The position numbers and the translations under genes are program-made. Below the pieces are notes generated by a model. That model saw only the letters and a list, made by a program, of their open reading frames with translations. It did no database searches and was not told where the DNA came from. Shown piece by piece: positions 22,186 to 23,691 of a stretch of DNA of 29,004 nt. The DNA is from a virus (lineage: Duplodnaviria; Heunggongvirae; Uroviricota; Caudoviricetes): IMG/VR virus record IMGVR_UViG_643348547_000007; one strand, 5' to 3'. Position 1 is the first letter of the stretch. Each line of letters starts with the position of its first letter.

Positions 22186-23691
22186 TCATGGCATGGCCAT
22201 GAGCATTTTCACGTCCGCATCACCGTCTGCTGACGTCTGTGACACGCCACCCCGCACCGCTGCCGGTGAATGATTCGCCATGAAATGTTCAAACAGGGCG
22301 GTTGTGGATGCAGAGACCGGTTCTGCCTTACCTGATCCCGCAGCCAGCACAGCCCGGGCGCTCTCCACAGTCATTCCCGGGCAGGCAGCCAGCTGTTCAG
22401 CCTGCGCCTCAGCCCCTTTTGCCTCATCCAGTGCCATGATCTGATCACGAAGTGAGGGCCCGGCATCCGCCAGTGGTGCAGCCGCAAGGATCGGGCGGGC
22501 TTTTTCCACCGTCATCTCCGGCATCGCCGCCAGCGTTGCCGCCAGTTGTTCACGACCTTTAGCCTCTTCACACGCCATAATGCGATCGGCTTCACTCTGT
22601 GCGGATGCCACCGGCTGCTGCGGTGCCGCCGCGGCCAGAATCGCCCGGGCCTGTTCAACGCTCATGCCCTGTTGCCCTGCCAGCATCGTGGCAAGCTGTT
22701 CACGTCCTTTCGCTTCCTGGCATGTCAGGATCCCCATCACTCGCTGGTTCTCCTGCACGGCGGCTTCCGTTGCAGTTAATTGCGGCATAGTGCCTCCTCT
22801 GACATTACTGTTCAGCGCCGCAGCCATCACGCTGATGGCATCCGACGCATTGATTAATTCATCCGCCAGCCCGGCCTCAATGCCGGACTGACCTTCAAAA
22901 ACGGCGGCCTCTGTTCCCGTGACTGCATCAACAGACAGACCGGTATACATCGCCACTTTTTCGGCAAACATCCGGTGCGCCGCATCAACCCGCTGCTGCA
23001 TGTCCTGACGCACCTCTGCCGGTAAGGCTTCAAACTGATTGCCATCCACCTTGTGCGCCCCGGCATAAATCAGCGTGATATCCACCCCGGCCTGCGCCAG
23101 ATGACCGGCATAGCTGACATGGCTCATCATCACGCCAATGGAGCCGATACGGGATGTCTGGGTAACCAGCCGTCGGGAGCAGGCCGACGCCAGCAGCATG
23201 GCTGCAGAACAGGCCGTGTCATTGCACAGTGCCCAGACCGGCTTCTGCTGACGGAGGCGGTAAATCATGTCAGCGCAGTCAAACGCGCCGGCGGCCTGCC
23301 CGCCCGGACTGTCAATGTCCAGCAGTACGCCCCGCACCTGGCTATCTGCCATTGCCTGCTGAAGACAGGCGACAATGCCGTCATAGCCTGTCATTCCGGA
23401 AAATGGCCGCATACCGCCCAGCCGGTGCACCAGCGTGCCGGTCACCGGCAGTACAGCAATACCGTTCACCACCCGGTAAACACGGGCCGGTCGTTTACCT
23501 CCGGCCATGTACTCGTCCGTTTCAGCCAGCATTCCGGGAGCATCAAGCTGTACCTGTTGTTGTGGTACCGAAAGACTTGCTGCCCCCATCTCGCGCCCGA
23601 GCGCGCAAAAGAAAACCCGCGCATAGGCGGGCTCCAGAAGCAGCGGTTCATTGAATGCTGCGGCAATAATGTGTGAAAGATTACGTCTCAC
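22186..23691 (-). CDS. C: Head maturation protease C (S49/ClpP-like) with nested scaffold (Nu3-like) C-terminal region, 501 aa
   Basis: S49 peptidase-like N-terminal two-thirds (GGQAAGAFDCADMI, SACS motif); the C-terminal region carries repeats related to the lambda Nu3 segment (RIMGIL.C.EA.GRE...). Confidence 0.9.
   Translation of the reverse strand: MRRNLSHIIAAAFNEPLLLEPAYARVFFCALGREMGAASLSVPQQQVQLDAPGMLAETDEYMAGGKRPARVYRVVNGIAVLPVTGTLVHRLGGMRPFSGMTGYDGIVACLQQAMADSQVRGVLLDIDSPGGQAAGAFDCADMIYRLRQQKPVWALCNDTACSAAMLLASACSRRLVTQTSRIGSIGVMMSHVSYAGHLAQAGVDITLIYAGAHKVDGNQFEALPAEVRQDMQQRVDAAHRMFAEKVAMYTGLSVDAVTGTEAAVFEGQSGIEAGLADELINASDAISVMAAALNSNVRGGTMPQLTATEAAVQENQRVMGILTCQEAKGREQLATMLAGQQGMSVEQARAILAAAAPQQPVASAQSEADRIMACEEAKGREQLAATLAAMPEMTVEKARPILAAAPLADAGPSLRDQIMALDEAKGAEAQAEQLAACPGMTVESARAVLAAGSGKAEPVSASTTALFEHFMANHSPAAVRGGVSQTSADGDADVKMLMAMP
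22327..22740 (-). repeat. Three diverged tandem copies of a roughly 40-codon module in the C/Nu3 scaffold region
   Basis: Protein repeats MGILTCQEAKGREQLATMLAGQQGMSVEQARAILAAAAP / IMACEEAKGREQLAATLAAMPEMTVEKARPILAAAPL / IMALDEAKGAEAQAEQLAACPGMTVESARAVLAAGSG. Coordinates are computed from residue positions and are approximate. Confidence 0.5.

What the first reader, a model, noticed from the sequence alone, without database searches (positions are those of the whole stretch)
22327..22740. Triplicated module of about 40 residues in the protease/scaffold gene C
The C-terminal scaffold-like part of C contains three diverged tandem copies of a motif that, as I recall, occurs once in lambda (RIMGIL.C.EA.GRE...). 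The ORF is 501 aa versus about 439 in lambda. Scaffold length changes could affect capsid assembly or the ratio of nested protease to scaffold products.
Basis: partly seen in the sequence, partly recalled or inferred. Interest (0 to 1): 0.4.

Follow-up and report, generated by a model that had tools for sequence, protein, structure and literature searches.

The report
Phage 21 scaffold "Tri box" triplication
The head protease/scaffold gene of this phage-21-type prophage really does carry three diverged copies of a small helical module that lambda has once, but the triplication was already annotated in phage 21 (as "Tri boxes", function unknown) and is common in E. coli.

Summary
The minus-strand ORF 22186-23691 (501 aa) is the lambda C homologue. 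It has an S49 protease domain followed by three tandem copies of a module of about 40-45 aa: aa 307-356, 366-406 and 413-452. The copies are 43-57% identical to each other (z = 12-18 against shuffles). Lambda (439 aa) and phi80 (447 aa) have one copy.

It is not new. The gene is 97.3% identical at DNA level to phage 21 gene 5. This allele occurs in 1865 of 5426 complete E. coli genomes.

What this work adds:
- Each module is predicted with high confidence (pLDDT 92) to be a three-helix bundle, joined to its neighbours by poorly conserved linkers.
- The nested Shine-Dalgarno + ATG start (Met302) is conserved, giving a 200-aa Nu3-like scaffold against 131 aa in lambda.
- One copy is the rule: 100 of 102 module-bearing cluster representatives have one. 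Three copies is an old state found in Enterobacterales.
- A sister E. coli allele family has 4 or 5 near-identical copies.

The mechanism, a multivalent interaction module of the scaffold, is inferred and not shown. Interest is low.

The parts
22186..23691 (-). Gene 5 / lambda C homologue: S49 prohead protease with C-terminal scaffold region, 501 aa, GTG start overlapping the end of the portal gene
   Evidence: ORF. PHROG 53 head maturation protease, E = 3.6e-228. 97.3% nt identity, colinear, with phage 21 gene 5. Annotated 'S49 family peptidase' in E. coli genomes.
22816..23256 (-). Peptidase S49 domain (aa 146-292)
   Evidence: Pfam PF01343, E = 2.1e-35, 122 bits against a cut-off of 24.9.
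22793..22798 (-). Shine-Dalgarno sequence AGGAGG, 4 nt upstream of the internal in-frame ATG
   Evidence: Sequence read. The only in-frame start in the gene with a 6/6 AGGAGG match. An RBS is annotated at the same place in both phage 21 records.
22186..22788 (-). Nested gene 6 / Nu3 homologue: scaffold protein of 200 aa starting at Met302, in frame with gene 5 and sharing its stop codon
   Evidence: Annotated as CDS 'gene 6' in M81255.1 and as 'scaffolding protein' in OL657228. SD + ATG conserved in lambda (Met309), phi80 (Met311), the 4- and 5-copy alleles, Trabulsiella and Providencia.
22624..22773 (-). Module 1 (aa 307-356), which contains the Tri1 box (22618-22721). It is the orthologue of lambda's single module and has the full-length N-terminal helix.
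   Evidence: HMM hit of 67-89 bits. Module tree. AF2 single-module model with pLDDT 91.9 and three helices. Tri1 mapping.
22474..22596 (-). Module 2 (aa 366-406), equivalent to the Tri (Tri2) box 22471-22581. It lacks about 7 residues of the N-terminal helix.
   Evidence: HMM hit of 52-77 bits. Alignment. Helices at Nu3-numbering 66-71, 80-87 and 94-103, pLDDT about 80.
22336..22455 (-). Module 3 (aa 413-452), equivalent to the Tri3 box 22327-22440. It is the most diverged copy (KGAE instead of KGRE).
   Evidence: HMM hit of 44-73 bits. Alignment. Helices at 113-118, 127-134 and 141-151.
22189..22335 (-). C-terminal tail (aa 453-501): one predicted amphipathic helix (TALFEHFMANH), an acidic stretch and a hydrophobic end (DADVKMLMAMP). 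It matches the lambda tail in pattern (TALDRLMQGAP...DAVNDLLNTPV).
   Evidence: Alignments. AF2 helix at Nu3 residues 160-173 with low pLDDT elsewhere. Only 8-31% identity among 3-copy orthologues.

Best explanation
WHAT IT IS (shown)
The window carries the phage-21-type allele of the lambda C/Nu3 gene pair. One reading frame yields a 501-aa S49 prohead protease (gp5). From a conserved internal SD + ATG at Met302 it should also yield a 200-aa scaffold protein (gp6), identical to the protease's C-terminal 200 residues. The three 'Tri boxes' are three copies of the one conserved folded element of this scaffold region. That element is predicted to be a three-helix bundle of about 40-45 residues. 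The copies are strung together by short, poorly conserved Ala/Pro/Gln-rich linkers and followed by a weakly conserved tail.

EVOLUTION (shown)
One copy is ancestral and by far the commonest state. The triplication is old: synonymous sites between copies look saturated, and the copies are positionally orthologous between E. coli and a Salmonella allele. It has been retained in E. coli, Shigella, E. albertii, Salmonella, Trabulsiella and Providencia prophages. A sister allele family carries 4 or 5 much more similar copies.

HOW IT WORKS (inferred, not shown)
The module is the protein-protein interaction unit of the scaffold. It would bind the inner face of the major capsid protein, or other scaffold chains or the portal. 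Because the protease carries the same C-terminus, the module would also deliver the protease into the procapsid. Three to five copies per chain would make a multivalent scaffold. In length they take the place of the roughly 45-residue Ser/Thr/Ala-rich disordered linker that lambda Nu3 has upstream of its single module. Copy number would change by unequal recombination between repeats, without changing the capsid type.
For: IDENTITY
- 97.3% nt identity, colinear over 1506 nt, with phage 21 gene 5. Tri1/Tri/Tri3 boxes and the nested gene 6 with its RBS are annotated in M81255.1.
- S49 domain present. Gene order is portal, this gene, shp/D, major capsid protein.

REPEATS AND FOLD
- The single-module AF2 model has pLDDT 91.9 and pTM 0.73 with three helices.
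- In the 200-aa model each module has pLDDT about 80, the linkers are below 60, and pTM is 0.28, which indicates beads on a string.

SELECTION ACTS ON THE PROTEIN MODULES
- Among 3-copy orthologues the modules are 50-78% identical, the linkers 12-38% and the tail 8-31%.
- Differences from phage 21 and from the O104:H4 allele fall mostly at third codon positions of this frame.
- Between copies, only 7-9 of 19-25 identical residues use the same codon.

COPY NUMBER
- Among the 149 best 50%-identity cluster representatives, 100 have one module and one has three.
- Three copies are found only in Enterobacterales among the genome-contig hits.
- 4-copy (538 aa) and 5-copy (584 aa) alleles exist, with units up to 96% identical at DNA level.
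- Rare 2-copy derivatives have junctions inside or between the repeats.

NESTED START AND LAMBDA BACKGROUND
- The nested start is conserved in every allele examined, giving products of 131-282 aa.
- In lambda, the capsid and scaffolding proteins alone self-assemble into shells (PMC9295703). Nu3-E, Nu3-Nu3 and Nu3-C interactions are reported (PMC3224144).
Against: - No experiment or complex model ties the module to any partner. The binding role is an inference from conservation and from the fact that small three-helix bundles are often tandemly repeated binding modules.
- In other nested protease/scaffold systems, such as the herpesvirus assemblin/scaffold pair (own knowledge), the extreme C-terminal tail binds the capsid protein. 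Here too there is a tail with a conserved pattern, so the modules could instead be oligomerisation or spacer units.
- Lambda gpNu3 has been described as intrinsically disordered (title of Medina et al. 2011, seen in reference lists). That sits uneasily with a confidently folded module, although the module is only about a third of lambda Nu3.
- The AF2 alignments were shallow (12 and 15 sequences).
Confidence: 0.6

Rival explanations
1. The C-terminal tail (aa 453-501) is the capsid-binding element, as in herpesvirus and other scaffolds. On this reading the three-helix modules are self-association or spacer domains. They would set the reach and oligomeric state of the scaffold, and copy number would trade off against disordered linker length.
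For: - The tail keeps a recognisable pattern between lambda and the 21-type: an amphipathic helix (F/L-x-x-F/L-M), an acidic stretch and a hydrophobic C-terminal end.
- Lambda has one module plus a linker of about 45 aa. The 21-type has three modules and almost no linker.
- Nu3 self-association is reported (PMC3224144).
Against: - The tail is the least conserved part among 3-copy orthologues (8-31% identity), while the modules are the most conserved.
- The module, not the tail, is what is shared with distant S49 protease-scaffold proteins from Vibrio, alpha-proteobacteria and Leptospira.
Confidence: 0.25
2. The extra copies are functionally neutral. They would be an expandable, tolerated repeat in a largely disordered scaffold, produced by unequal recombination and carrying no selected role of their own.
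For: - Copy number ranges from 1 to 5 beside capsid proteins of the same length, 84% identical between the 3- and 4-copy alleles.
- Rare 2-copy deletion variants exist.
- Lambda works with one copy.
Against: - Modules 2 and 3 keep the motif residues (EAKG-E, LA, PGMT-E-A, L-AA) across genera, while the linkers between them diverge freely.
- The three copies have persisted long enough for synonymous sites to look saturated.
- All 80 IMG/VR loci of this allele keep the scaffold part at full length; 79 match over exactly 600 nt and one over 601 nt.
- The 2-copy forms are singletons or nearly so: 1-3 member sequences, and some may be assembly errors.
Confidence: 0.1
3. The repeat is conserved for a nucleic-acid-level reason: CII-binding sites, an antisense ORF, or an RNA structure controlling the nested start.
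For: - OL657228 annotates two 'CII binding sites' (TTGYN6TTGY) inside gene 6. Both are present in the window at 22536-22549 and 22770-22783.
- Plus-strand ORFs of 63-103 aa overlap the region.
Against: - The TTGYN6TTGY pattern occurs 5 times in the window against 5.98 expected by chance.
- The copies are only 51-61% identical in DNA but 43-57% identical in protein, with different codons for the same residues.
- Allelic differences fall on third positions of the minus-strand frame.
- The antisense ORFs have no support.
Confidence: 0.03

Closest known systems
Phage 21 genes 5 and 6 with Tri1/Tri2/Tri3 boxes (GenBank M81255.1; complete genome OL657228, PMC9119081). The original paper, as I recall, is Smith & Feiss 1993, Gene 126:1; it is not held in the library.
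   Same: 97.3% nt identity over a colinear 1506 nt, with 14 aa differences. The nested gene 6 start and RBS are the same. The three repeat boxes are at the same positions, and the neighbours shp (115 aa) and the major capsid gene are the same.
   Different: Nothing structural, only allelic substitutions. Nine of the 14 aa differences lie in the scaffold part.
Lambda C (capsid assembly protease) and nested Nu3 (scaffold)
   Same: S49 protease domain, position in the head operon, an in-frame nested start with SD, one homologous module and a tail of similar pattern. Identity is 53% over aa 3-344.
   Different: Lambda has one module preceded by a Ser/Thr/Ala/Gln-rich linker of about 45 aa. Nu3 is 131 aa against 200 aa here. 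Modules 2 and 3 here lack about 7 residues of the first helix.
E. coli prophage S49 peptidase alleles with 4 or 5 modules (WP_096934546.1, 538 aa; WP_235384680.1, 584 aa)
   Same: Same architecture and nested start. 73% identical in the protease part. The adjacent major capsid protein is 84% identical.
   Different: The repeats have an exact 46-aa period and are much more alike (neighbouring units up to 96% identical in DNA), which implies recent expansion or homogenisation. They are found in about 104 of 5426 genomes; 9 of those have 5 copies.
Tandem three-helix-bundle binding modules (staphylococcal protein A domains, GA albumin-binding modules, UBA/CUE domains)
   Same: Predicted fold class and size. 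Occurrence as beads on a string.

Membership tests
Lambda C/Nu3-type S49 prohead protease with nested scaffold | Peptidase S49 (SppA-like) catalytic domain | tested here: met
   PF01343, E = 2.1e-35, 122.4 bits (cut-off 24.9), aa 146-292. TIGR00706 SppA_dom E = 3.8e-32, below its equivalog cut-off as expected for a phage paralogue.
Lambda C/Nu3-type S49 prohead protease with nested scaffold | Located between the portal gene and the decoration/major capsid genes of a lambda-like head operon | tested here: met
   Portal 23681-25273, this gene, D/shp homologue 21802-22149, E homologue 20716-21744. The order is the same in O104:H4 and phage 21.
Lambda C/Nu3-type S49 prohead protease with nested scaffold | In-frame internal translation start giving a scaffold identical to the protease C-terminus | tested here: met
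   The sequence signals are present and conserved: AGGAGG-cact-ATG at Met302, GGAGGG-cga-ATG in lambda and GGAGGA-act-ATG in phi80. Actual use of the start in this prophage cannot be tested with these tools.
Lambda C/Nu3-type S49 prohead protease with nested scaffold | Proteolytic maturation activity and scaffold function in procapsid assembly | not testable with these tools
   Needs genetics or biochemistry. Inferred from homology only.
Phage 21 gene 5/6 allele (Tri-box type) | Three Tri boxes in the nested scaffold gene, colinear with M81255.1 | tested here: met
   Tri1, Tri2 and Tri3 map to window 22618-22721, 22471-22581 and 22327-22440 without indels.
Helix-hairpin-helix motif (PF00633) | Score at or above the Pfam gathering threshold | tested here: not met
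P22-type / other structurally characterised scaffold coat-binding domains | Sequence or fold similarity to a solved scaffold domain | tested here: not met

The most novel reading that the evidence does not exclude
The Tri module is a dedicated capsid-binding or portal-binding three-helix domain, absent from Pfam and NCBIfam. Its copy number (1, 3, 4 or 5 in E. coli prophages, with rare 2-copy forms) would be a naturally variable 'valency dial' of the scaffold. It would change scaffold:capsid stoichiometry or assembly kinetics without changing capsid geometry, and it would evolve by unequal recombination.
Probability: 0.3. Interest if true: 0.4.

Novelty: already known. Interest (0 to 1): 0.2.

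Why it matters
It matters little for discovery. The triplication has sat in the phage 21 sequence record as 'Tri boxes' for decades, and the allele is in roughly a third of complete E. coli genomes.

Its residual value is as a natural experiment. Closely related lambda-like heads use nested scaffolds of 131, 200, 236 or 282 residues that differ mainly in the number of one small folded module. That series could be used to ask what the module binds, and how scaffold valency and length affect procapsid assembly. This is relevant to lambda-based particle platforms.

The module also lacks a Pfam or NCBIfam model, so a curated domain would improve annotation of 'S49 family peptidase' prophage genes.

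Tried and rejected
- Tandem Repeats Finder on 21000-24000 found nothing relevant, because the copies are too diverged at DNA level.
- The search for homologous proteins with the 200-aa scaffold returned mostly gene fragments. These were useful only for spotting 2-, 3- and 4-copy forms.
- The same tool with a 66-sequence module profile returned only 6 tiny fragments. The architecture survey therefore rests on the representative search, genome contigs and the E. coli and IMG/VR scans.
- The PDB sequence search and Foldseek of the whole 200-aa model gave nothing.
- An HhH / DNA-binding reading was rejected as below threshold.
- A DNA-level or antisense function was rejected.
- I tested whether the lambda/21 chimera in phage D2 shows co-inheritance of scaffold and capsid against protease N-terminus and portal. 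It does not help: D2's portal is 93.5% identical to the window's and 66.9% to lambda's over the last ~500 residues, so the lambda-type stretch seen in C residues 1-110 is at most a short patch.
- The primary papers were not available. These are Smith & Feiss 1993, Medina et al. 2011 and, presumably, Medina et al. 2010, which was not looked up. Statements about them rest on titles in reference lists or on my own recollection, and are marked as such.

Full report
THE OBSERVATION
The finding's span (22327-22740) lies inside a minus-strand ORF, 22186-23691, of 501 aa. Translated and numbered, the span covers aa 318-455. Three segments align with each other and with the single corresponding segment of lambda and phi80 C proteins:
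- ENQRVMGILTCQEAKGREQLATMLAGQQGMSVEQARAILAAAAP
- EADRIMACEEAKGREQLAATLAAMPEMTVEKARPILAAAP
- LRDQIMALDEAKGAEAQAEQLAACPGMTVESARAVLAAGS

Pairwise identity between the copies is 43-57%. Local alignment scores are 83-108, against about 24 +/- 5 for shuffled sequences (z = 12-18; none of 2000 shuffles reaches them). At DNA level the copies are only 51-61% identical, and identical residues mostly use different codons (7/25, 8/19 and 9/24 share the same codon). This explains why Tandem Repeats Finder reports nothing, and it shows that the similarity is maintained at protein level. Lambda C is 439 aa and phi80 C is 447 aa, each with one module. The observation, including the 501 versus 439 aa comparison, is therefore correct.

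WHAT THE GENE IS
The protein has a Peptidase_S49 domain (aa 146-292, E = 2e-35) and matches PHROG 53, 'head maturation protease', end to end. It sits between a portal gene (62% identical to lambda B) and homologues of D (54%) and E (61%, 342 aa against 341 aa). These all lie in a complete lambda-like late operon on the minus strand.

A megablast against phage genomes shows that the gene is 97.3% identical, colinear over all 1506 nt, to gene 5 of coliphage 21. Mapped onto the window, these are 22618-22721, 22471-22581 and 22327-22440. The 2022 complete genome of phage 21 (OL657228; PMC9119081) annotates the same pair as 'capsid protease/scaffolding protein' and 'scaffolding protein'. So the feature is real, and it is already recorded.

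HOW COMMON IT IS
The 3-copy allele is present at 80% coverage or more, mostly at 95-99% identity, in 1865 of 5426 complete E. coli genomes. The lambda-type 1-copy allele is in 3140. All 80 best IMG/VR loci carry the 3-copy scaffold part at full length; 79 match over exactly 600 nt and one over 601 nt.

THE NESTED START
The only in-frame start in the gene with a perfect AGGAGG upstream is the ATG of Met302 (window 22788-22786; SD at 22798-22793). The equivalent SD + ATG is present in:
- lambda (Met309, product 131 aa) and phi80 (Met311, 137 aa);
- the 4-copy and 5-copy alleles described below (236 and 282 aa);
- the Trabulsiella and Providencia relatives (202 and 191 aa).

Whether the start is used here cannot be tested in silico.

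ANATOMY OF THE SCAFFOLD PART
An AlphaFold2 model of the 200-aa product gives three separate helical units at pLDDT about 80. The linkers are of low confidence, most of the tail is of low confidence, and pTM is 0.28, so no fixed arrangement between the units is predicted.

Module 1 modelled alone, with 15 aligned sequences, gives pLDDT 91.9 and pTM 0.73. It forms a compact bundle of three helices. Modules 2 and 3 lack about 7 residues of the first helix.

SELECTION
Among full-length 3-copy orthologues (P0097, Trabulsiella, Providencia), identity to the window protein by region is:

| Region | Identity |
|---|---|
| Protease part | 63-80% |
| Module 1 | 76-78% |
| Module 2 | 61-71% |
| Module 3 | 50-63% |
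| Linkers | 12-38% |
| Tail | 8-31% |

Allelic differences from phage 21 and from the O104:H4 prophage lie mostly at third codon positions of this frame, in both the protease and scaffold parts. All three modules therefore behave as constrained protein domains separated by free linkers.

COPY NUMBER ACROSS RELATIVES
I built an HMM of the module and iterated it on the 149 best 50%-identity cluster representatives from an exhaustive search with the full protein (31,783 proteins at E <= 0.001). The counts were:
- 100 representatives with exactly one module;
- 47 with none detectable, many of them fragments or proteins with a different C-terminus;
- one (P0097, 505 aa) with three;
- one that is a deletion derivative of the window's own type.

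In species-representative genomes found by motif scan, three modules occur in E. coli, Shigella flexneri, E. albertii, Trabulsiella guamensis and Providencia alcalifaciens. The Vibrio, alpha-proteobacterial, Leptospira and other hits all have one. Salmonella fragments also show three.

In a module tree, all first modules group with the single module of lambda and phi80. Modules 2 and 3 of the E. coli allele pair by position with those of a Salmonella allele; for more distant orthologues the 44-residue tree does not resolve position. The triplication is thus old and derived, and it is confined to an Enterobacterales lineage among the relatives sampled.

Rare 2-copy proteins with junctions inside or between repeats exist (P0013, P0018, P0022; 1-3 member sequences each). 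Some may be assembly artefacts.

A sister allele family in E. coli has four copies (538 aa) or five copies (584 aa) with an exact 46-residue period. It is 73% identical to the window in the protease part, and its neighbouring capsid protein is 84% identical. Neighbouring units are up to 96% identical in DNA. It is found in about 104 of 5426 genomes, nine of which have the 5-copy form. So in E. coli prophages the same kind of head operon comes with nested scaffolds carrying 1, 3, 4 or 5 modules.

MECHANISM
What is shown: the identity of the gene pair, the domain architecture, the constraint on each module and the copy-number series.

What is inferred: that the module is the interaction unit of the scaffold, with the capsid protein or with scaffold or portal; that it also targets the protease, which shares the same C-terminus, to the procapsid; and that three to five copies make the scaffold multivalent while replacing, in length, the linker of about 45 residues that lambda Nu3 has upstream of its one module.

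Background on lambda:
- The capsid and scaffolding proteins alone form shells (PMC9295703).
- Nu3-E, Nu3-Nu3, Nu3-C and Nu3-B relations are listed in PMC3224144.
- gpC as the protease and gpNu3 as a largely disordered assembly catalyst are known to me only from titles in reference lists and from memory.

The main rival is that the tail, as in other nested protease/scaffold systems, binds the capsid, and the modules serve for self-association or spacing. A neutral-repeat reading is disfavoured by the conservation pattern. A DNA-level reading is disfavoured because the annotated 'CII sites' match a pattern that occurs at chance frequency (5 observed against 5.98 expected).

Nothing in the sequence points to an altered capsid. 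The capsid protein is the same length as lambda's, phage 21 is an ordinary lambdoid phage, and alleles with 3-5 modules accompany capsid proteins of the same 342-aa length. The nested start signal is equally strong in all alleles, so there is no indication of a changed protease:scaffold ratio either. These points remain untested rather than refuted.

VERDICT
The modest additions here are the fold prediction, evidence that all three copies are constrained, and the 1/3/4/5 copy-number series (plus rare 2-copy forms). Interest is low (0.2).

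Noticed in passing
window 2980-4289 and 28145-28939: A complete 1310-nt IS3-family element lies between the tail-fibre genes. It has orfA/orfB on the minus strand, a transposase ORF at 3022-3912, and a 100% full-length match in E. coli genomes. A truncated copy in inverted orientation lies just upstream of the small terminase gene. Together they form a perfect 795-nt inverted repeat, 23,855 nt apart, that brackets almost the whole virion-structural operon. The second copy diverges abruptly after nt 795. From memory the element is IS629/IS1203-like.
   Followed up: partly
L028 (NZ_CP041435.1), L029, L030 (NZ_CP091016.1): A sister allele family of the same gene in E. coli prophages has 4 modules (538 aa) or 5 modules (584 aa) with an exact 46-aa period. 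Neighbouring units are up to 96% identical in DNA. The 5-copy form is in 9 of 5426 complete genomes; the rows listed are STEC strains.
   Followed up: yes
L002 (phage D2, OM475427.1) 1486-3003: The C protein of phage D2 is a natural chimera. Residues 1 to about 110 are lambda-type and the rest is 21-type. This implies a recombination joint inside the protease gene, while most of the portal and the D and E homologues are 21-type.
   Followed up: partly
window 6610-7089: The 801-aa tail-fibre gene (5182-7587, minus strand) contains an array of direct repeats with spacings of 21, 42 and 126 nt, and a 189-nt duplication at 83% identity.
   Followed up: no
window 9220-9393: There is a tandem 87-nt duplication (75% identity) inside the J-like central tail fibre gene (8313-12113, minus strand).
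   Followed up: no
window 22536-22549 and 22770-22783: The two 'transcription factor CII binding sites' annotated inside gene 6 of phage 21 (OL657228) are present here. However, the pattern TTGYN6TTGY occurs 5 times in the window against about 6 expected by chance, so the annotation looks like a pattern match only.
   Followed up: yes
window 1-1284 and 4241-4894: A 427-aa minus-strand ORF begins at the window's first base (its stop codon is not confirmed within the window) and matches only a PHROG of unknown function (phrog_2034). A 217-aa ORF matching only the C-terminal part of tail-fibre families abuts the IS element, which suggests that the IS insertion disrupted or truncated a tail-fibre gene.
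   Followed up: no
window 20281-20712: The FI-like ORF is listed as 143 aa from a GTG, but the PHROG match starts at residue 17 (MATKEENL...). The real start is therefore probably the internal ATG, giving about 127 aa.
   Followed up: no
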